A stretch of 64,000 nt of DNA, taken from sequence record NC_031047.1. One strand, 5' to 3'. Positions 1,298 to 54,636 of this stretch are shown here, piece after piece (the first letter of the stretch is position 1; each line of letters starts with the position of its first letter). Below the pieces are notes generated by a model. That model saw only the letters and a program-made list of their open reading frames with translations. It was not told the DNA's origin and did not search any database. The DNA comes from Escherichia phage HY03. A program made the position numbers and the translations under genes.

Positions 1298-1930
1298 TTA
1301 TTTATTACGTGAAAAAGACTGTTCTATCAATTCTGGACACTTTCGTTCTATCCATTTTCTAGCTTTTTGTGGGCTTATACCTATTATTTTAGCAGCTTTA
1401 CTAACCCATCCAAATTTAGAATAATCGATTTTAACTAATTCTTCGTAAATTTCATCAGTTAAAATCTTTTCATTAATATTTACCAGTAAATGATATAATT
1501 TGTTATCATTAGCAATTTTAATGAATCTTTTATAGTTTCCGCCTTTACTTAAACCTAATGAAGTAATTGCAGATGATATAGTAGCCGAATTTAATAATGC
1601 GTTTAAAATTTCTTCATCACTAACATTATAACGCTTTTTATTATTTTTAATATTTTTACCAGCAAAAGTATCAGTTTGCGAATGACAGTTTGGACATAAT
1701 AATCTTAAATTTGATTTAAGATGATTTTTGTTATTTCCATCAATATGGTCTAATTGCAGAACAATATGCTTATTTTGCCATTTTGAAATTTTACAAATTG
1801 CACACTCATATGGAAAAATATTTTCTTTTATTATTTTGTCTTTCAGCTTTCCTGTACTAAAATTTGGATGTTTTCCTTCAAAAATTTCAGCTAATTTAGT
1901 ATCCATAATATGATTCCCAATTATTAACAA
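1298..1930 (-). CDS. HNH homing endonuclease
   Basis: 210 aa; HNH motif CAICK...LQLDHIDGNNKNHLKSNLRLLCPNCH; abuts tRNA-Leu where T4 carries tRNA-Gln. Confidence 0.65.
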   Translation of the reverse strand: MLIIGNHIMDTKLAEIFEGKHPNFSTGKLKDKIIKENIFPYECAICKISKWQNKHIVLQLDHIDGNNKNHLKSNLRLLCPNCHSQTDTFAGKNIKNNKKRYNVSDEEILNALLNSATISSAITSLGLSKGGNYKRFIKIANDNKLYHLLVNINEKILTDEIYEELVKIDYSKFGWVSKAAKIIGISPQKARKWIERKCPELIEQSFSRNK

Positions 1931-2016
1931 AGGCTCTCAAACAAGAACCCTTGATGATAGAGGGTATTAATCAGTGCGATATGAGTTAATAATAACAAAT
2001 AATTCTTAAAGCATAT

Positions 2017-2304
2017 TTACCATTTATGATGATACGTATTTACGATACATTCAAGACCCAAAGGATTCTTGAAAATATCATATTCAAGAGGACCTTTTTC
2101 TGTTTCAATAAAGAAATCAAAATTTACTGTATTAAATTTACGGTCTTCCTTCACTAATTTAACTTGAGAAGATGAACGGTCAACATAAACCTTTTCAACT
2201 TCAAAACATGTTAAAACGCCATAATCATCAATCAAGGCTTTAGCCGCGTCTTGATCATATTTATATCCATTTTCAATGGACGATACTTTAGCATAAAGAA
2301 TCAT
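2017..2304 (-). CDS. hypothetical protein (95 aa)
   Basis: ORF packed between neighbours on the early strand; no recognisable motif. Confidence 0.45.
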   Translation of the reverse strand: MILYAKVSSIENGYKYDQDAAKALIDDYGVLTCFEVEKVYVDRSSSQVKLVKEDRKFNTVNFDFFIETEKGPLEYDIFKNPLGLECIVNTYHHKW

Positions 2305-2307
2305 TAT

Positions 2308-2688
2308 TTACCCTTCATCAACAATAGTATGAGTGTGGGCATTTACAATTTGCCACCAATCAAAGCGATTAGAACCATACATTGGTTTGTTCTCATTTTC
2401 TTTGATAAGGTCACGGAGTTCATCTTCGGTAGCGGCTTTCGCGATTAAATCAGCATATCCACCGCGAGGATAATAATTATCACCTGCAAAAAGTAAAAAG
2501 TTCGGTTTAATATTATTGAACTCTTCAAGAGTAATAACTGTTCCACCAGGTTGAACAATATCTACATATTTATATCCCAATTTTTGGGCAGCATCTACTG
2601 CTTCAAGCAAAGTATCATGAGCCCATCCAATTTGACAACCTGGCTTTTCAGATGGATTAGCCTGATAATCCGCGTACACTTTATACAT
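2308..2688 (-). CDS. hypothetical protein
   Basis: ORF 2308..2727; likely start at internal Met (MYKVYADYQ) which avoids overlap with upstream ORF. Confidence 0.45.
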   Translation of the reverse strand: MYKVYADYQANPSEKPGCQIGWAHDTLLEAVDAAQKLGYKYVDIVQPGGTVITLEEFNNIKPNFLLFAGDNYYPRGGYADLIAKAATEDELRDLIKENENKPMYGSNRFDWWQIVNAHTHTIVDEG

Positions 2689-2689
2689 T

Positions 2690-2875
2690 CTATTCACCTT
2701 TAGAAATTTTATCCATAACGATAGCAATTAAACCAATTAAAAATGCTACTACAAGTGAAAACACATTTTCTGCTGTAGTTAATAATCCGCATATAAATCC
2801 AACAAACATTGAAAAACTAAAAGCGGAAGCAGAAATTGCAATAGCAACATTTCGAATTAATTCACAACGTTTCAT
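2690..2875 (-). CDS. small hydrophobic (membrane) protein, 61 aa
   Basis: 61-aa ORF with one long hydrophobic stretch; early promoter immediately upstream. Confidence 0.4.
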   Translation of the reverse strand: MKRCELIRNVAIAISASAFSFSMFVGFICGLLTTAENVFSLVVAFLIGLIAIVMDKISKGE

Positions 2876-2896
2876 TTTATTCTCCTCAGTAGTTGA

Positions 2897-2947
2897 TAGG
2901 GTAATAGTATCACAACTAAAACCCTATGTAAACAACTTTGTGAAATA
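2897..2947 (-). promoter_or_regulatory. T4 early-type (sigma70) promoter
   Basis: On minus strand: -35 GTTTAC (2928-2933), 18-bp spacer, -10 TACTAT (2904-2909), preceded by conserved AATTTCACAAAGTT element. Confidence 0.55.
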
Positions 2948-2951
2948 TTTA

Positions 2952-3239
2952 TTACAAAAGATTTTTAGCAATAATTTTGAGCTGAGCTACTGAAATATGC
3001 TTGGCTTTAAACAAAGCAGTTTCTTCAGCAGGAGAGATAACGATTGTAGCACCATCCTTTTTAGCAGACCACCCATCGCCTAGGTAAACAGTACCTTTGA
3101 TTTCTTCGCCATCAACCAGACTAATCATTGGTTTACCTTCTCGTCCTTTATTTGCTTTAATAACTTCAGAAGTAAGAGTAGCTTCGGTAATGGTAGAAAC
3201 CGGGGTAGTTGTAGAAGTAAACTCTTTGAAAGTTTTCAT
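2952..3239 (-). CDS. ipI: internal protein I (IPI), capsid-targeted and injected
   Basis: 95 aa; N-terminal capsid targeting sequence MKTFKEF...ITE|A, cleavage leaving 76 aa as for T4 IPI; next to 57B. Confidence 0.75.
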   Translation of the reverse strand: MKTFKEFTSTTTPVSTITEATLTSEVIKANKGREGKPMISLVDGEEIKGTVYLGDGWSAKKDGATIVISPAEETALFKAKHISVAQLKIIAKNLL

Positions 3240-3262
3240 TTTATTTTCCTAATTAATTTTGA

Positions 3263-3311
3263 TGAGATAATAGTATCACTACCTCATCAGCATGTAAACA
3301 ACTTTGTGAAA

Positions 3312-3312
<1 letters not shown>
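3263..3312 (-). promoter_or_regulatory. T4 early-type promoter upstream of ipI
   Basis: On minus strand: -35 GTTTAC (3294-3299), 18-bp spacer, -10 TACTAT (3270-3275), same AATTTCACAAAGTT upstream element. Confidence 0.55.
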
Positions 3313-4008
<696 letters not shown>

Positions 4009-4009
<1 letters not shown>

Positions 4010-4722
4010 TATAGTACCTTTAGTGTATTTTTAATTTTAGAAAAAAGTTCTTCAAGAGAACCATCGTTTGTAATTACTAAATCACCATCACGAATTGGCA
4101 ATCCAGCTTCTGTAATATGAGTATCATTGGATTTTTGACCAGGACGAACTACATGAATTACTGTAGCACCCATCGCCCTAGCCGCATCCATTTCATGATC
4201 TTGACGAGTATCAGGAACGATATAATAATCATAACCTGAGTTAAATTTATCAAGATAATCTAAAGCAAATAATTTTACCCAATACATGCGGTCGAAGTTA
4301 TTAACAATCAAATCCGTACCTAGGGCTTGCATCAGACGACGGACTGACCATTGATCTTCAATATTATTTATAACGTCAGCAATCTTGTTAAATGCTACGA
4401 AATTAACTGCGTCATCAAAAACAAACACACCTTTAATTGGGCTTTTACTATTAAGATAGCAAAATGCTTGTTCCATAATCGTAATTACTTCTAATTTAGT
4501 CAGATTTAAATTAGTTTCACGATCATAGTCAATTCCTTCAAACTCTTTACGAGTTAAACAAGGATAGTCAGTGTTTGCTGCAAATACACCCCATGCATAA
4601 GCCAATGCATCCTTAATAGGACCAGCAAGTTGATATTTAACTGCAGAATAATTATTCATAATAAAATCAGCAGTAGTATCTTTTCCACTACGCTTTACAC
4701 CACTTAAAAAGATTAGTTTCAT
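4009..4722 (-). CDS. 1: dNMP kinase (gene 1)
   Basis: 237 aa; P-loop GVKRSGKDT; T4 gp1-like size and position. Confidence 0.9.
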
Positions 4723-24781: not shown

Positions 24782-28942
<4,161 letters not shown>

Positions 28943-28970: not shown

Positions 28971-30950
28971 ATGACTTTATTATCTCCGGGCATTGAGCTC
29001 AAAGAAACTACGGTTCAAAGCACCGTGGTTAATAACTCTACTGGTACAGCAGCTTTGGCCGGTAAATTCCAGTGGGGTCCTGCTTTTCAGATTAAACAGG
29101 TTACAAACGAAGTAGATTTAGTTAATACTTTTGGTCAACCTACAGCTGAAACTGCTGACTATTTTATGTCTGCAATGAATTTCTTACAATATGGAAATGA
29201 TTTGCGAGTTGTGCGCGCTGTCGATAGAGATACCGCTAAAAACTCATCTCCGATTGCTGGTAATATTGAATACACAATTTCTACCCCAGGTAGTAACTAC
29301 GCGGTTGGAGATAAAATCACGGTCAAATATGTTTCAGAAGATGTTGAAACAGAAGGTAAAATTACCGAAGTAGATGCTGATGGAAAAATTAAGAAAATTA
29401 ATATTCCTACTGCAAAAATTATTGCTAAAGCTAAAGAAGTTGGCGAATACCCAACATTAGGTTCTAACTGGACTGCAGAAATTTCTTCATCTTCTTCCGG
29501 TTTAGCTGCAGTAATAACTCTTGGAAAAATTATTACTGATTCCGGTATTTTATTAGCTGAAATCGAGAGCGCTGAAACTGCTATGACAGCAGTTGATTTT
29601 CAGGCAAATCTTGAAAAATATGGAATTCCAGGAGTAGTAGCTCTCTATCCAGGCGAATTAGGCGATAAAATTGAAATTGAAATCGTATCTAAAGCTGACT
29701 ATGCGAAAGGCGCTTCTGCATTACTGCCAATTTATCCAGGTGGTGGTACTCGTGCATCTACTGCCAAGGCAGTATTTGGATATGGGCCGCAGACTGACTC
29801 ACAGTACGCTATTATAGTTCGTCGAAATGATGCTATTGTTCAAAGCGTTGTTCTTTCAACTAAGCGTGGTGAAAAAGATATTTACGATAGTAACATCTAT
29901 ATCGATGACTTTTTCGCAAAAGGTGGTTCAGAATATATTTTTGCAACTGCACAAAACTGGCCAGAAGGATTCTCTGGAATTTTAACTCTTTCTGGTGGAT
30001 TATCATCAAATGCTGAAGTTACAGCAGGAGATTTGATGGAAGCTTGGGACTTCTTTGCTGACCGTGAATCTGTTGACGTTCAACTGTTTATTGCGGGTTC
30101 TTGTGCCGGTGAATCTTTAGAAACAGCATCTACTGTCCAAAAACACGTCGTTTCAATTGGAGATGCTCGCCAAGATTGCTTAGTATTGTGCTCACCACCG
30201 CGTGAAACTGTTGTTGGAATTCCTGTAACTCGTGCAGTAGATAATTTAGTTAACTGGAGAACTGCGGCAGGTTCATATACTGATAATAACTTTAATATTA
30301 GTTCAACCTACGCAGCAATTGATGGTAACTACAAATATCAGTATGACAAATATAATGATGTAAATCGTTGGGTTCCATTAGCAGCTGACATTGCTGGTTT
30401 ATGCGCGAGAACTGATAACGTTTCTCAGACTTGGATGTCTCCAGCTGGTTATAATCGTGGTCAGATTCTTAACGTTATTAAACTTGCTATTGAAACTCGC
30501 CAAGCTCAGCGCGACCGTTTATATCAAGAAGCTATCAACCCAGTAACTGGTACAGGTGGTGATGGTTACGTATTGTATGGTGATAAAACAGCTACTTCTG
30601 TTCCTTCTCCATTTGATCGTATTAACGTTCGTCGTCTGTTTAATATGTTGAAAACGAATATCGGACGTAGTTCAAAATATCGTTTGTTCGAATTAAACAA
30701 CGCGTTTACTCGTTCATCATTCCGCACAGAAACTGCCCAGTACTTACAGGGAATTAAAGCTCTCGGTGGAATTTATGAATATCGTGTAGTTTGCGATACA
30801 ACAAATAACACTCCGTCAGTAATTGATAGAAATGAGTTTGTTGCAACATTCTACATCCAACCGGCGCGCAGTATAAATTATATTACTTTGAATTTCGTCG
30901 CAACTGCTACTGGTGCAGACTTCGATGAGTTAACTGGTCTTGCAGGTTAA
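28971..30950 (+). CDS. 18: gp18 contractile tail sheath
   Basis: 659 aa as T4 gp18. Confidence 0.95.
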   Translation: MTLLSPGIELKETTVQSTVVNNSTGTAALAGKFQWGPAFQIKQVTNEVDLVNTFGQPTAETADYFMSAMNFLQYGNDLRVVRAVDRDTAKNSSPIAGNIEYTISTPGSNYAVGDKITVKYVSEDVETEGKITEVDADGKIKKINIPTAKIIAKAKEVGEYPTLGSNWTAEISSSSSGLAAVITLGKIITDSGILLAEIESAETAMTAVDFQANLEKYGIPGVVALYPGELGDKIEIEIVSKADYAKGASALLPIYPGGGTRASTAKAVFGYGPQTDSQYAIIVRRNDAIVQSVVLSTKRGEKDIYDSNIYIDDFFAKGGSEYIFATAQNWPEGFSGILTLSGGLSSNAEVTAGDLMEAWDFFADRESVDVQLFIAGSCAGESLETASTVQKHVVSIGDARQDCLVLCSPPRETVVGIPVTRAVDNLVNWRTAAGSYTDNNFNISSTYAAIDGNYKYQYDKYNDVNRWVPLAADIAGLCARTDNVSQTWMSPAGYNRGQILNVIKLAIETRQAQRDRLYQEAINPVTGTGGDGYVLYGDKTATSVPSPFDRINVRRLFNMLKTNIGRSSKYRLFELNNAFTRSSFRTETAQYLQGIKALGGIYEYRVVCDTTNNTPSVIDRNEFVATFYIQPARSINYITLNFVATATGADFDELTGLAG

Positions 30951-31607
30951 TTGATTATGGGGCTTCGGCCCCTATTCTCGAGGAAACAAGTGATTATTTC
31001 TAAGTTTGTTAAAGTGAAAATTGTACCATCAAATTTTAAACATTATCAATCAAAGGGTTATAAATTAACACCTCTTGGAGCGGTTAAACATGGATTTAGG
31101 TATTATGAAATTGATGTTAAAGTTGAAGACATTAAAGGTAGTACCGCGTATGTAAAATGCCGTTGCGATAAATGTGGAATTGAATATAACCAACGCATTG
31201 GAAGAAACACTGATATTTGTCGTGATTGCCGTCATAAAGATAAAATGCGCAATAATTCATATGGTTCCGCGAATAAAGGAAAAACAGTAGAATGTATGCA
31301 TGGCGTAAATCATCCAAGATGGAACCCAAATAAATCTGAAATGCGTGAATATATTTCATTGGTATATAAAGAAACTCGTAAGCATAAGAAAATTTGGTCA
31401 AAATGGCCAAATGCTGATAAAATAGGAGTGTGCGGTACAAAAGGTGCTTACCAACTTGATCATAAGGTATCTATCAAATACGGTTTTGATAATTTAATTC
31501 CTGCTGAAATAATTGGCGGTATTAATAATTTAGAAATAATCACTTGGGAATCTAACCGAGAAAAGTCAAAAAGAAATAGTGTAGATCTTTGGGATTTACT
31601 AGAATGA
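30951..31607 (+). CDS. HNH homing endonuclease
   Basis: C-terminal HNH motif (YQLDHKVSIKYGFDNLIPAEIIGGINNLEIITWESN) plus Cys-rich region CRCDKCG...CRDCRH; true start probably the GTG near 30991 after GAGG. Confidence 0.65.
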   Translation: MIMGLRPLFSRKQVIISKFVKVKIVPSNFKHYQSKGYKLTPLGAVKHGFRYYEIDVKVEDIKGSTAYVKCRCDKCGIEYNQRIGRNTDICRDCRHKDKMRNNSYGSANKGKTVECMHGVNHPRWNPNKSEMREYISLVYKETRKHKKIWSKWPNADKIGVCGTKGAYQLDHKVSIKYGFDNLIPAEIIGGINNLEIITWESNREKSKRNSVDLWDLLE

Positions 31608-31692
31608 TTCTAAAGGCCTGTTTCGGCAGGCCATATAAATACACTATATCCTTAATTCTTTAATTCTATATGCCCTAGGTTAAACATAGGGA

Positions 31693-31700
31693 TATAAATA
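31693..31700 (+). promoter_or_regulatory. T4 late promoter box TATAAATA
   Basis: TATAAATA upstream of gene 19. Confidence 0.5.
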
Positions 31701-31714
31701 CTACAGAGGCTAAT

Positions 31715-32206
31715 ATGTTTGTAGATGATGTAACACGAGCGTTTGAATCTGGTGATTTTGCTCGACCTAACTTATTCCAAGTAGAAATTTCTTATCTTGG
31801 ACAAAATTTTACATTCCAATGTAAAGCCACTGCTTTACCAGCTGGTATTGTAGAAAAAATTCCAGTCGGATTTATGAACCGTAAAATTAACGTAGCAGGC
31901 GATCGTACATTCGATGACTGGACTGTTACAGTAATGAACGATGAAGCTCATGATGCTCGCCAGAAGTTTGTTGATTGGCAAAGCATTGCTGCTGGTCAAG
32001 GAAACGAAATTACTGGTGGAAAACCTGCAGAGTATAAAAAGAGCGCTATTGTTCGTCAATATGCTCGTGATGCTAAAACAGTAACAAAAGAAATTGAAAT
32101 TAAAGGTCTGTGGCCTACTAACGTGGGTGAACTTCAATTAGATTGGGATTCAAACAATGAAATCCAAACCTTTGAAGTAACTCTTGCTCTCGATTATTGG
32201 GAATAA
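31715..32206 (+). CDS. 19: gp19 tail tube protein
   Basis: 163 aa as T4 gp19. Confidence 0.95.
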   Translation: MFVDDVTRAFESGDFARPNLFQVEISYLGQNFTFQCKATALPAGIVEKIPVGFMNRKINVAGDRTFDDWTVTVMNDEAHDARQKFVDWQSIAAGQGNEITGGKPAEYKKSAIVRQYARDAKTVTKEIEIKGLWPTNVGELQLDWDSNNEIQTFEVTLALDYWE

Positions 32207-37590: not shown

Positions 37591-37605
37591 TCTTTGACGA
37601 TTTAA

Positions 37606-37630
37606 GGGACCTTCGGGTCCCTTTAGTTGT
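37606..37630 (+). terminator. rho-independent terminator after gene 23
   Basis: Hairpin GGGACC-TTCG-GGTCCC followed by T-rich run. Confidence 0.6.
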
Positions 37631-40547: not shown

Positions 40548-40566
40548 AAGGGGCCGAAGCCCCTTA
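40548..40566 (-). terminator. rho-independent terminator after hoc
   Basis: Minus-strand hairpin AAGGGGC-TTCG-GCCCCTT followed by T-rich run. Confidence 0.5.
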
Positions 40567-44574: not shown

Positions 44575-45263
44575 ATTATAAATTAATATACGATAATTTA
44601 ATTAATAGAGCCCAGAATCGGGCTCGCCTTAATGGATACACTGAAACTCATCATATAATTCCTAGATGTATGGGCGGTACAGATGATAAGTGTAATTTGG
44701 TAGAACTAACAGCTGAAGAGCATTTTATAGCTCATAAACTTTTAGCTAAAATTCATCCAAACCATTACGGTATAATTAAAGCCGTTATATGTATGGGGAT
44801 GAATTCAAAAACTCATGAAAGACACGTTAATAAATCTTACGCCTGGGAACGTCGTAAAATGGCAGAACTTCAATCAGGTGAAGGTAATCCATTTTACGGA
44901 AAACACCATACGGAAGAACATAAACAATATATGTCAAAACTCATGAAAAATCGTCCAATTACGTGGGGAAGTAAAATTAGTAAAACTAAAAGAATGAACC
45001 CAACAAAATGGACTGAAGAAGCTAAAAGATTGCATTCTATCAATCAATCAGGTAAAAATAATGGCATGTATGGAAGGAAACATTCCGCTAAATCTATTCA
45101 GAAAATTAAAGATAACATGCCAGATAATTCAGGAGCTAATAACCCAGCTGCTAAACCTATAGAAGTAAATGGTGTTAAGTATAAATGCATGAAAGATGCT
45201 TCTAAAGCTACTGGATTATCAATGTACAAACTAAGAATACTTAGAAAAACAGTTAATTTATAA
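44571..45263 (+). CDS. HNH homing endonuclease (Mob-type)
   Basis: 230 aa; HNH motif HHIIPRCMGGTDDKCNLVELTAEEHFIAH; N-terminal 65 aa closely parallel ORF 5409..6083. Confidence 0.7.
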   Translation: MNYKLIYDNLINRAQNRARLNGYTETHHIIPRCMGGTDDKCNLVELTAEEHFIAHKLLAKIHPNHYGIIKAVICMGMNSKTHERHVNKSYAWERRKMAELQSGEGNPFYGKHHTEEHKQYMSKLMKNRPITWGSKISKTKRMNPTKWTEEAKRLHSINQSGKNNGMYGRKHSAKSIQKIKDNMPDNSGANNPAAKPIEVNGVKYKCMKDASKATGLSMYKLRILRKTVNL

Positions 45264-45276
45264 GGGCTTCGGCCCT

Positions 45277-45519
45277 TTGGAGAAAAAGATGTTACTAGAA
45301 TTTAAACAATTTCTTTATGAAGCTTCTATTGATGAATTTATGGGTAAAATTGCCTCTTGCCAAACATTAGAAGGTCTAGAAGAACTTGAAGCTTATTACA
45401 AGAAAAGAGTTAAAGAAACTGAATTAAAAGATACTGATGACATCTCTGTGAGAGATGCTTTGGCAGGAAAAAGAGCTGAATTAGAAGATTCAGACGATGA
45501 AGTAGAAGAAAGCTTTTAA
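45277..45519 (+). CDS. uvsW.1: UvsW.1-like small acidic protein
   Basis: 80 aa; position downstream of uvsW (here separated from it by the HNH gene). Confidence 0.6.
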   Translation: MEKKMLLEFKQFLYEASIDEFMGKIASCQTLEGLEELEAYYKKRVKETELKDTDDISVRDALAGKRAELEDSDDEVEESF

Positions 45520-54208: not shown

Positions 54209-54636
54209 TTTGTGTTCCTCATGTTATGTCAGTAAGACTACTATAACACAACACGAGGGACTTGTAAACTACATTTTGAACTTTTTAGTACGCGTAATAG
54301 GCATGCGTCGATTTTATACTGTTTCATTGTTTGAAGAGCAGTATCAAAAACAGCATTAATGACACCAATTGGATTTCCACCCAAGTTTTTAAGCTTAACT
54401 AATGATAGTTTCTAGTTTCTCATTAACACCTATCATTACGATATGCATCATTTTGTCGCCTGGTTTAACGTTTTATCTGTATCACCGCCAGAGGTGTATG
54501 TACAAAATCTAAATCCAGGAAGCACGCTTTCTTCGCCGGCTTGAATAGCAAAAATTTGTGGTATTTTATGCTTAGGATTTAAGTTAACAACCGGCGCCGA
54601 AGCGCCGTCAAATAATTATGTAATAAGTTCCATGAT

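What the first reader, a model, noticed from the sequence alone, without database searches (positions are those of the whole stretch)
30951..31607. HNH endonuclease between tail sheath (18) and tail tube (19) genes, start overlapping a hairpin
An HNH ORF (C-terminal QLDHKVSIKYGF...N...N plus a Cys-rich region) is wedged between genes 18 and 19. The first 20 nt of the tool-called ORF include a GGGGCTTCGGCCCC hairpin right after the gene 18 stop, so the real start is probably the GTG near 30991 after a GAGG Shine-Dalgarno, and the hairpin may be a terminator or RNA-processing element controlling its expression.
Basis: partly seen in the sequence, partly recalled or inferred. Interest (0 to 1): 0.4.

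Follow-up and report, generated by a model that had tools for sequence, protein, structure and literature searches.

The report
Free-standing HNH-like endonuclease cassette, T4-type phage
A small, optional selfish-gene cassette (an RNA hairpin, a ribosome-binding site and a 205-codon nuclease-like gene) sits between the tail sheath and tail tube genes of this T4-like phage; it is real, but it is an ordinary example of the homing-endonuclease-type insertions common in these phages.

Summary
The window is a Tequatrovirus. In this window, 656 bp (30951-31606) lie where T4 has 8 bp between the gene 18 stop and gene 18's own hairpin. The block carries a GGGGC(UUCG)GCCCC hairpin (30959-30972), a GAGG Shine-Dalgarno (30980-30983) and an ORF that almost certainly starts at GTG 30990. 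Homologues begin there (M-I-I-S-K), the PHROG profile starts there, and RB3 has a 1-nt deletion that puts the TTG out of frame.

The close subfamily lies beside the tail sheath gene in every GenBank and metagenomic locus inspected and in about half of the IMG/VR loci, once in inverted orientation. More distant relatives sit beside replication genes. T4 and T2 lack the gene, RB3 has this allele, and T6 and PST have a second allele with a diverged N-terminal half.

Best reading: a promoter-less, free-standing HNH-type homing endonuclease cassette with its own 5' hairpin. Cleavage, target and hairpin function are inferred, not shown. It is a new member of a known kind and of modest interest.

The parts
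28971..30950 (+). Gene 18 (tail sheath), the conserved upstream neighbour and the likely source of the late transcripts that read into the cassette.
   Evidence: ORF listing. Same length as T4 gene 18, with 105 differences in 1980 nt.
30866..30899 (+). Cluster of 11 synonymous differences from T4 over 12 consecutive codons of gene 18, 49-82 nt upstream of the stop codon. Candidate endonuclease target or immunity polymorphism (inference only).
   Evidence: It is the densest 42-nt stretch of differences in gene 18 (permutation P=0.0015), and all changes are silent. The window haplotype accompanies allele A, a second haplotype accompanies allele B, and the T4 haplotype is in most genomes without the insert. 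The association is not exclusive, since FriedrichZschokke and T2 have the window haplotype with an empty site.
30951..31606 (+). The inserted cassette: 656 bp present where T4, T2 and other insert-free Tequatroviruses have the 8 bp TACGGTGC.
   Evidence: Direct comparison of junctions. Flanks are identical on both sides: the TAA of gene 18 on the left, and ATTCTAAAGGCCTG... on the right.
30959..30972 (+). Cassette-borne RNA hairpin GGGGC(UUCG)GCCCC. It has no U tract after it and does not contain the Shine-Dalgarno.
   Evidence: MFE -10.8 kcal/mol when folded alone. It is absent from insert-free genomes. The same stem with a GAAA loop precedes a 42%-identical homologue in L033, and the same hairpin occurs in Shewanella phage Thanatos-2. 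The terminator scan did not call it.
30980..30983 (+). Shine-Dalgarno GAGG, 6 nt before the GTG.
   Evidence: Sequence. Equivalent AGGA/AAGGA motifs precede the aligned start in VR7, Roth16 and L033.
30990..31607 (+). Endonuclease-like ORF read from its probable GTG start: 205 aa, TGA stop at 31605-31607.
   Evidence: PHROG 5104 profile position 1 aligns to this codon. RB3 annotates this start, and its 1-nt deletion puts the TTG out of frame. Homologues start M-I-I-[ST]-K here, with non-homologous upstream sequence and an in-frame stop 5 codons upstream in Melin.
31011..31385 (+). N-terminal half (residues 8-132), including a C59-x2-C62...C77-x2-C80 zinc-ribbon-like motif. Presumed DNA-binding module and the allele-variable region.
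   Evidence: Only 38 of 111 aligned residues are identical between allele A (window) and allele B (PST, T6). The first 7 codons are identical, and the last 73 residues are 65/73 identical. C59, C62 and C77 are invariant.
31386..31604 (+). C-terminal HNH-like (beta-beta-alpha-metal) nuclease domain: D157-H158 at 31458-31463, N180 at 31527-31529, N189 at 31554-31556, K192 at 31563-31565.
31615..31632 (+). Native gene 18 3' hairpin GGCCUGU(UUCG)GCAGGCC, now downstream of the cassette.
   Evidence: It is present at the same place relative to gene 19 in T4 and all insert-free relatives. MFE -12.8 kcal/mol, with 0 of 200 shuffles folding as well.
31634..31700 (+). Two consensus late promoters TATAAATA (31634-31641, 31693-31700) for gene 19, left intact by the insertion.
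   Evidence: Pattern search. The sequence is identical in T4. A hairpin abutting a late promoter is the general 18-19 spacer design in T4-like phages.
31715..32206 (+). Gene 19 (tail tube), the downstream neighbour.
   Evidence: ORF listing. 100% protein identity to T4 gp19.

Best explanation
The feature is a promoter-less, free-standing homing-endonuclease-type cassette of an uncatalogued HNH-like family.

Structure (shown): it is a 656-bp optional block inserted exactly between the stop codon of tail sheath gene 18 and that gene's native 3' hairpin. It contains its own stable UUCG hairpin, a GAGG ribosome-binding site, and a 205-codon gene that starts at GTG 30990. The protein has an N-terminal zinc-ribbon-containing half, presumed to bind DNA, and a C-terminal beta-beta-alpha-metal (HNH-type) nuclease domain with an invariant D-H...N...N...K.

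Mechanism (inferred):
- The gene is transcribed late, as read-through from gene 18.
- The hairpin takes over the job of protecting or ending most gene 18 mRNA, and together with the weak GUG start it keeps nuclease expression low.
- In mixed infections the enzyme cuts insert-free relatives in or near the 3' end of gene 18.
- Repair from the insert-carrying genome copies the cassette in.
- The silent-substitution cluster at 30866-30899 may mark the target or immunity site.
For: Presence/absence with exact boundaries among nearly identical genomes:
- T4, T2, FriedrichZschokke, e11/2 and five IMG/VR Tequatroviruses have TAA-TACGGTGC-ATTCTAAAGG.
- The window, RB3, ADUt, PST and T6 have the cassette at that point.
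- About 117 of 709 matching phage records carry an insert.

Start codon: PHROG profile, RB3 frameshift of the TTG, and aligned M-I-I-S-K starts with a stop upstream in Melin.

Mobile-element behaviour:
- Close relatives lie next to the sheath gene in very different phages: Tequatrovirus, Gaprivervirus, Dhakavirus, Winklervirus, Acinetobacter, Shewanella, Klebsiella and Sinorhizobium phages.
- The same holds in three metagenomic contigs and in 38 of 80 IMG/VR loci. A further IMG/VR locus, L043, has it in inverted orientation between sheath and tube.
- Distant relatives sit beside clamp-loader-like and topoisomerase-like genes.
- Two alleles with diverged N-terminal halves occupy the same site.

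Hairpin as part of the cassette:
- It is absent from empty sites.
- VR7 likewise carries its own hairpin upstream of the ORF and keeps the native one downstream.
- L033 has the same stem with a GAAA loop.

Precedents: promoter-less seg/mob cassettes, terminators in the 5' ends of mobE and segF, the seg43(25) hairpin just upstream of the RBS (PMC2988022), and hairpins upstream of 15 of 16 free-standing endonuclease ORFs (PMC2677866).
Against: - No cleavage, homing or expression data exist for any member that I could find.
- The gene 18 haplotype association is not exclusive, my sample is small, and it is not corrected for phylogeny.
- In 8 of 17 distinct IMG/VR spacers, and in metagenomic contigs such as L031 and L034, the gene is packed within 0-34 nt of the sheath stop with no hairpin. 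That looks like a stable operon resident rather than a recent invader.
- In Melin and CHI14 it shares the strong late promoter with gene 19, which is unexpected for a tightly repressed selfish nuclease.
Confidence: 0.65

Rival explanations
1. It is a long-resident accessory nuclease that benefits the phage, for example by degrading competitor or host DNA late in infection or by another role linked to tail-gene expression. It is inherited mostly vertically and lost repeatedly, rather than being an actively homing element.
For: Strict position next to the sheath gene persists across very deep divergence, down to about 30% protein identity. Many environmental members are packed into the sheath-tube operon with spacers of 0-12 nt. 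Melin and CHI14 transcribe it from the same late promoter as gene 19. The ORF is intact in 231 of 235 phage records.
Against: It is dispensable: T4, T2 and most Tequatroviruses lack it while their flanks are nearly identical. One locus has it inverted between the same two genes. Allele mosaicism and relatives beside replication genes are typical of homing endonuclease families. A conserved position is also seen for mobE between nrdA and nrdB (PMC2988022).
Confidence: 0.2
2. The protein keeps an HNH-like fold but is not a nuclease. It could be, for instance, a DNA- or RNA-binding regulator or a degenerate relic of a homing endonuclease.
For: No curated HNH model matches. The usual second His is replaced by Asn, and the flanking CxxC pairs of many HNH domains are missing from the C-domain.
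Against: The general-base His with its preceding Asp, both Asn and the Lys are invariant over a family of more than 6000 clusters at 50% identity. H-N-N variants such as Cas9 are active nucleases (established knowledge). A relic would not stay intact in 231 of 235 records.
Confidence: 0.07
3. The hairpin acts mainly on translation of the endonuclease, like the RBS-sequestering hairpins of I-TevI and mobE, rather than on gene 18 mRNA ends.
For: Such control is documented for several T-even homing endonucleases (PMC2988022). In the 101-nt fold, a weak 4-bp extension of the stem pairs the first two bases of GAGG. Relatives VR7 and Melin embed a TATAAATA late promoter in their hairpins, the classical arrangement.
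Against: In the window the SD lies 8 nt and the GTG 18 nt beyond the stem. The extension is not kept in RB3. The 101-nt region folds no better than shuffles, z = -0.16. There is no TATAAATA between the gene 18 stop and the GTG.
Confidence: 0.15
4. Translation starts upstream, at ATG 30957 or TTG 30951, and runs through the hairpin, giving a protein of 216 or 218 aa.
For: The frame is open from the TTG. ADUt and some metagenomic gene callers annotate the longer form.
Against: RB3's 1-nt deletion puts the TTG out of frame. The ATG is inside the stem and has no good SD. N-terminal extensions in homologues are unrelated to each other and simply translate hairpin DNA. Melin has an in-frame stop 5 codons upstream of the aligned start. 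The PHROG profile starts at the GTG.
Confidence: 0.05

Closest known systems
T4 free-standing HNH homing endonucleases (mobA-E, best studied MobE between nrdA and nrdB)
   Same: It is an optional intergenic gene next to a conserved gene, and a promoter-less cassette that uses upstream transcription. An RNA hairpin or terminator sits at the 5' end. The distribution among close relatives is patchy, and the same locus is occupied in distant phages (PMC2988022).
   Different: No detectable sequence similarity: tblastn at E<=1e-5 finds one place per record, although RB3 and similar phages carry mob genes (PMC2993671 table). No Pfam HNH hit. The nuclease domain is C-terminal, behind a zinc-ribbon half. 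Activity and target are unknown.
seg43(25) of Aeromonas phage 25, and the 5' hairpins of free-standing endonucleases in 'fractured genes' (Dassa et al. 2009)
   Same: A very stable hairpin lies immediately upstream of, but does not include, the RBS (seg43(25)). Hairpins occur upstream of 15 of 16 endonuclease ORFs, and 10 of them contain TATAAATA. The VR7 and Melin relatives of this gene follow that pattern.
   Different: Those endonucleases are GIY-YIG or Vsr-like and split a coding gene. Here the insertion is intergenic, and the window's hairpin has no late promoter.
Small phage HNH nicking endonucleases (Geobacter Gme HNH 4h9d; phage GVE2 HNH 5h0o)
   Different: Sequence identity is only 8-15%. 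Those proteins are about 90-100 aa single domains associated with terminase or cos packaging, whereas this one has an extra N-terminal half, sits between sheath and tube genes, and is dispensable.
C(UUCG)G hairpins of T4 intercistronic regions (Tuerk et al. 1988, from my own knowledge)
   Same: A G+C-rich stem closed by C-G around a UUCG tetraloop, in an intergenic position after a highly expressed gene. Several occur in this window.
   Different: This copy travels with a mobile cassette rather than belonging to the core genome. A homologous cassette in L033 has a GAAA loop instead.

Membership tests
HNH / beta-beta-alpha-metal nuclease superfamily | Beta-hairpin followed by an alpha-helix (beta-beta-alpha-metal fold). 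| tested here: met
HNH / beta-beta-alpha-metal nuclease superfamily | Catalytic His at the end of strand 1 (usually preceded by Asp), a structural Asn, and a metal-binding His or Asn in the helix. | tested here: met
   D157, H158, N180, N189 and K192 are invariant in 35 close and 32 diverse members. The DH aligns with the Cas9 HNH catalytic DH.
HNH / beta-beta-alpha-metal nuclease superfamily | Match to a curated HNH sequence profile (Pfam HNH clan, NCBIfam). | tested here: not met
   No HNH family at E<=1 for the protein. None in 10 distant relatives, which show only DUF7487. The PDB profile search gave at best E=0.23. Foldseek against the PDB found nothing.
HNH / beta-beta-alpha-metal nuclease superfamily | Divalent-metal-dependent DNA cleavage. 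| not testable with these tools
   Needs purified protein and a cleavage assay.
Free-standing homing endonuclease gene of T-even phages | Optional gene at a precise intergenic site between conserved genes, with otherwise near-identical flanks. | tested here: met
   The 656-bp block stands where empty sites have 8 bp, and flanks are identical. Roughly 117 of 709 records carry an insert.
Free-standing homing endonuclease gene of T-even phages | Site-specific cleavage of the endonuclease-free allele, with unidirectional inheritance (marker exclusion) in mixed infection. | not testable with these tools
   No experimental data were found. Crosses and cleavage mapping are required.
Free-standing homing endonuclease gene of T-even phages | Target-site differences that make the carrier genome immune. 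| tested here: inconclusive
   There are 11 silent differences from T4 within 34 nt of gene 18 (P=0.0015). However, the carrier haplotypes also occur with empty sites.
T4 Mob (mobA-E) protein family | Detectable sequence similarity to Mob proteins. | tested here: not met
   tblastn against 50,697 phage records finds 236 places in 235 records, that is, only this locus even in genomes that carry mob genes.
Intrinsic (Rho-independent) terminator | G+C-rich stem with a short loop. | tested here: met
   5-bp G/C stem with a UUCG loop, -10.8 kcal/mol.
Intrinsic (Rho-independent) terminator | U tract immediately after the stem. | tested here: not met
   The stem is followed by UAUUCUCGAGG. The terminator scan did not call it.
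RBS-sequestering regulatory hairpin (I-TevI / Aeh1 mobE type) | Shine-Dalgarno and/or start codon base-paired in the stem, with a late promoter inside the hairpin. | tested here: not met
   The SD is 8 nt and the GTG 18 nt downstream of the stem. Only a weak, non-conserved 4-bp extension touches the SD. There is no TATAAATA upstream of the ORF in the window. The relatives VR7 and Melin do embed one.

The most novel reading that the evidence does not exclude
This would be a locus-specialised homing endonuclease lineage that has tracked the tail sheath gene across much of the T4-like phage world. The same catalytic domain would be re-armed by swapping diverged N-terminal DNA-binding halves (alleles A and B at one site), each matched to a different silent-site haplotype of gene 18, giving an ongoing target/immunity arms race. 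The cassette would carry its own hairpin so that it can replace the mRNA 3'-end function it displaces.
Probability: 0.25. Interest if true: 0.5.

Novelty: new member of a known kind. Interest (0 to 1): 0.3.

Why it matters
If confirmed, the result gives a function to a widespread phage protein family that current libraries list as unknown. The family has more than 6000 clusters at 50% identity, no Pfam model, and is PHROG 5104 'unknown function'. More than 200 sequenced phage genomes carry it annotated as 'hypothetical protein'.

It would add a sixth kind of free-standing HNH element to the T-even repertoire, at a structural-gene locus rather than a nucleotide-metabolism locus.

RB3, T6, T4 and T2 would then form a ready-made natural system, carrying two alleles and empty sites, for studying how homing endonucleases change target specificity. 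The same system could show how inserted cassettes preserve the mRNA punctuation of highly expressed late genes.

For annotation, the practical points are the GTG start and the HNH-like assignment.

Tried and rejected
- Pfam, NCBIfam and PHROG scans of the protein gave no named function.
- Pfam on ten distant, longer relatives showed only DUF7487.
- phmmer and a profile search against PDB sequences gave only a marginal Cas9 hit, plus spurious leucine-rich-repeat hits caused by the NLxxxxxxN pattern.
- Foldseek of the full model against the PDB returned nothing, probably because the model is a two-domain one with pTM 0.48.
- hhalign of the C-domain profile against Bp7's annotated HNH endonuclease showed no relation. 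The template was a single sequence, so this is uninformative.
- Rfam at E<=1 over 30800-31800 found nothing.
- The sigma-70 and terminator scan gave no call at the hairpin, and sigma-70-like hits were near chance.
- TATAAATT at 30872-30879, inside the silent-substitution cluster, was considered as a variant late promoter that could drive the ORF. This is not convincing: 11 such octamers occur in the window at about the chance rate, although single-deviation late promoters do exist (PMC2988020).
- A strict link between gene 18 haplotype and the insert was rejected, because both carrier haplotypes also occur with empty sites.
- A universal hairpin in the family was rejected, because 8 of 17 distinct IMG/VR spacers are too short to hold one.
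- Universal sheath-gene synteny for the whole superfamily was rejected, because distant relatives sit elsewhere.
- Literature searches for 'gp19.1' or for a described 18/19 endonuclease found nothing relevant.

Full report
**What is there**

The window is a Tequatrovirus. The 1.9-kb stretch around the finding is 99.4% identical to Escherichia phage HP3 and 98.6% identical to RB3. The tool-called ORF at 30951-31607 lies between gene 18 (tail sheath, 28971-30950) and gene 19 (tail tube, 31715-32206). The GGGGC-TTCG-GCCCC hairpin is at 30959-30972, GAGG at 30980-30983, and the in-frame GTG at 30990.

**It is an insertion, and the hairpin belongs to it**

T4 reads gene 18 TAA, then TACGGTGC, then ATTCTAAAGGCCTGTTTCGGCAGGCC, followed by the late promoter TATAAATA. 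The same empty site occurs in T2, FriedrichZschokke, e11/2 and five IMG/VR Tequatroviruses.

In the window, 656 bp (30951-31606) lie where those genomes have the 8 bp TACGGTGC. Everything to the right is unchanged:
- the native hairpin at 31615-31632;
- two TATAAATA late promoters at 31634 and 31693;
- gene 19.

It arrived with the ORF, and the native gene 18 hairpin now lies behind the ORF. The same design is seen independently in Gaprivervirus. VR7 has a cassette hairpin, this time with a TATAAATA in its loop, in front of the ORF, and it keeps the native hairpin/promoter module of its insert-free relatives behind the ORF.

**Start codon**

Four lines of evidence point to GTG 30990:
- PHROG 5104 (E = 3e-91, function unknown) aligns its first profile position to residue 14 of the long ORF, which is this GTG.
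- RB3 has a 1-nt deletion upstream that puts the TTG out of frame, and its annotators chose the GTG.
- In 35 homologues the proteins align from M-I-I-[ST]-K. N-terminal extensions called in some records are unrelated to each other and are simply translated hairpin DNA. In Acinetobacter phage Melin an in-frame stop lies five codons upstream of the aligned ATG.
- GAGG lies 6 nt before the GTG, and the alternative ATG 30957 is buried in the stem.

GTG is also the start in PST, VR7 and Klebsiella phage Roth16.

**Is it an HNH nuclease?**

- Pfam and NCBIfam give no HNH hit, even at E<=1.
- None of 37 homologous clusters has any precomputed Pfam domain.
- Ten longer, distant relatives show only DUF7487.
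- Foldseek against the PDB found nothing.

Other evidence points to a divergent HNH/beta-beta-alpha-metal domain:
- D157, H158, N180, N189 and K192 are invariant in both a close and a diverse alignment.
- The C-terminal 106 residues model with pLDDT 94.7 as strand (ending in DH), two short helices, strand (preceded by NL), then a helix carrying the second Asn.
- The only non-spurious profile hit in PDB sequences is a Cas9 HNH fragment (E = 0.23) that aligns YQLDH with the catalytic YEVDH.

I therefore accept an HNH-type nuclease domain of the H-N-N variety. The support is at fold and motif level and is moderate, not decisive.

The N-terminal half carries C59-x2-C62...C77-x2-C80, a zinc-ribbon-like motif, and is the obvious candidate for DNA binding. 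That role is inferred.

**Family and distribution**

A profile search over 1.84 billion representatives finds 6129 clusters at E<=1e-3 and 1346 at E<=1e-10. The family is large and entirely uncatalogued.

In GenBank phages the protein is found in 235 records. It is full-length in 231 of them, with one copy per genome. It is annotated mostly as 'hypothetical protein', and occasionally as 'homing endonuclease' (ADUt), 'HNH endonuclease' (Ptacy1496) or 'type II restriction endonuclease' (Roth16).

Every GenBank locus I opened has it directly after the tail sheath gene. These were RB3, ADUt, PST, T6, VR7 (named gp19.1), Bp7, CHI14, Roth16, Acinetobacter phage Melin, Shewanella phage Thanatos-2 and Sinorhizobium phage phiM7. 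Three metagenomic contigs show the same arrangement.

Among 80 IMG/VR loci, 38 have a T4-type sheath gene immediately upstream. In a further locus, L043, the gene lies between sheath and tube in the opposite orientation. More distant relatives that share the domains lie elsewhere, for example next to a clamp-loader-like ATPase and a gyrase-B/topoisomerase-like gene. A family split into sub-lineages, each tied to a conserved phage gene, is the usual pattern for homing endonucleases (PMC2988022).

**Two alleles at one site**

T6 and PST carry a 201-aa version at exactly the same junctions. Comparing it with the window's version gives:

| Region | Similarity between alleles |
|---|---|
| Hairpin, SD and first 7 codons | identical |
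| Last 219 nt | 89% identical (65 of 73 residues) |
| Residues 8-132 | 34% identical in protein; not alignable as DNA |

One catalytic module therefore combines with two diverged N-terminal modules, consistent with recombination between family members.

**A possible target or immunity signature**

Between the window and T4, gene 18 differs at 105 of 1980 positions. Eleven of these, all silent, fall within 34 nt (30866-30899) across 12 consecutive codons. This is the densest cluster in the gene (permutation P = 0.0015). The 45 nt nearest the insertion and the 400 nt downstream of it are almost invariant.

Three haplotypes exist:
- the window type, found with allele A;
- a second type, found with allele B;
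- the T4 type, found in most insert-free genomes (18 of 24 sampled).

Both carrier haplotypes also occur with empty sites. This fits a sensitive-versus-resistant target model but does not prove it, because hitch-hiking with a donor lineage would look similar.

**The hairpin**

The hairpin is stable (-10.8 kcal/mol) but lacks a U tract, and the terminator scan does not call it. It does not contain the SD, and the surrounding 101 nt fold no better than shuffles. No Rfam family matches.

Insert-free T4-like phages all place a hairpin directly after gene 18 whose 3' arm abuts the gene 19 late promoter. By inserting between the stop codon and that hairpin, the cassette would separate gene 18 from its 3' structure, and its own hairpin restores one.

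A 42%-identical metagenomic homologue (L033) has the same GGGGC/GCCCC stem with a GAAA loop and a similar AGGAACAAT-ATG leader, and Thanatos-2 has the identical hairpin. This suggests the element is inherited with the gene. However, the same core also occurs elsewhere in this genome, so convergence cannot be excluded.

All the GenBank phage loci I folded have a strong hairpin in front of the ORF. In VR7 and Melin it embeds TATAAATA, and CHI14 and Bp7 have TATAAATA next to the start codon. Among 17 distinct IMG/VR spacers, 9 are strongly structured and 8 are too short (0-34 nt) to hold a hairpin. The hairpin is thus frequent in the family but not defining.

Published parallels are:
- promoter-less seg/mob cassettes;
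- weak terminators in the 5' ends of mobE and segF;
- the seg43(25) hairpin just upstream of the RBS (PMC2988022);
- hairpins upstream of 15 of 16 free-standing endonuclease ORFs in fractured genes (PMC2677866).

There is no late promoter between the gene 18 stop and the GTG in the window. Expression most likely depends on read-through of late gene 18 transcripts, attenuated by the hairpin and by the GUG start. This step is inferred.

**Verdict**

The feature is an optional, free-standing, HNH-like homing-endonuclease-type cassette, a well-known kind of element in T-even phages. It belongs to a family that has not been characterised or catalogued.

- Shown here: the boundaries of the insertion, ownership of the hairpin, the start codon (by comparison), fold-level assignment of the nuclease domain, the sheath-gene association, and the two-allele mosaic.
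- Inferred: nuclease activity, the target in gene 18, homing, and the role of the hairpin.

Novelty: a new member of a known kind. Interest: modest.

Noticed in passing
window 26087-28939: The large terminase gene 17 is a 'fractured gene'. The N-fragment (26087-26980) is T4 gp17 residues 1-256 followed by a 41-aa intein-N piece that starts with Cys ([10 protein letters not shown]...). A free-standing endonuclease ORF (26967-27566) follows, with Pfam hits to TnsA-like N-terminal (1.9e-9) and endonuclease I (1.1e-5). The C-fragment (27554-28939) is a 107-aa intein-C piece ending ...VESHN, then C257-AFIPNF... of gp17. The split is exactly after the Walker B DE. The same arrangement is in 15 phage records, including pSe_SNUABM_01 at 100%, JEP6, SG1, PD112 and phiR1-RT at 79%, while RB3 and T4 have an intact gene. 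A metagenomic gp17 precedent is described in PMC2677866. It may be more interesting than the assigned finding.
   Followed up: partly
window 30866-30899 (gene 18): Eleven silent substitutions relative to T4 fall in 12 consecutive codons, in an otherwise almost identical region. Three haplotypes circulate among Tequatroviruses. The window haplotype also creates TATAAATT at 30872-30879, one base off the late-promoter consensus.
   Followed up: partly
L001-L030 and IMG/VR loci, gene 18-19 spacers: In all insert-free T4-like phages examined, from enterobacterial phages to distant large-genome relatives of about 245 kb, gene 18 is followed by a stable hairpin whose 3' arm runs directly into the gene 19 late promoter (C)ATAAATA. 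This is a conserved terminator/stabiliser-plus-promoter module.
   Followed up: partly
L025 (Escherichia phage Bp7) 3769-5630: Bp7 has a second, annotated HNH endonuclease gene between genes 19 and 20, and its portal gene 20 is annotated in two pieces. That HNH shows no profile similarity to the family studied here.
   Followed up: no
GenBank MG010123.1 (hits H31, H41): A 32-kb record labelled 'Staphylococcus phage SAJK-IND' contains T4-type gene 18, this ORF and gene 19 DNA at 98% identity. The record is probably mislabelled or contaminated.
   Followed up: no
L043 (IMGVR_UViG_3300009563_000455) 1833-4125: A 43%-identical homologue lies between the sheath and tube genes but on the opposite strand to both, which fits insertion in either orientation.
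   Followed up: no
window 40548-40565 (- strand), 37604-37623, 45262-45277, 54592-54607 (- strand): There are further strong G+C-rich UUCG-loop hairpins, one with the same GGGGCTTCGGCCCC core as the cassette hairpin. The total count of TTCG-loop stems of at least 4 bp (14) is close to the shuffle expectation (9.5), but the long G+C-rich ones stand out.
   Followed up: no
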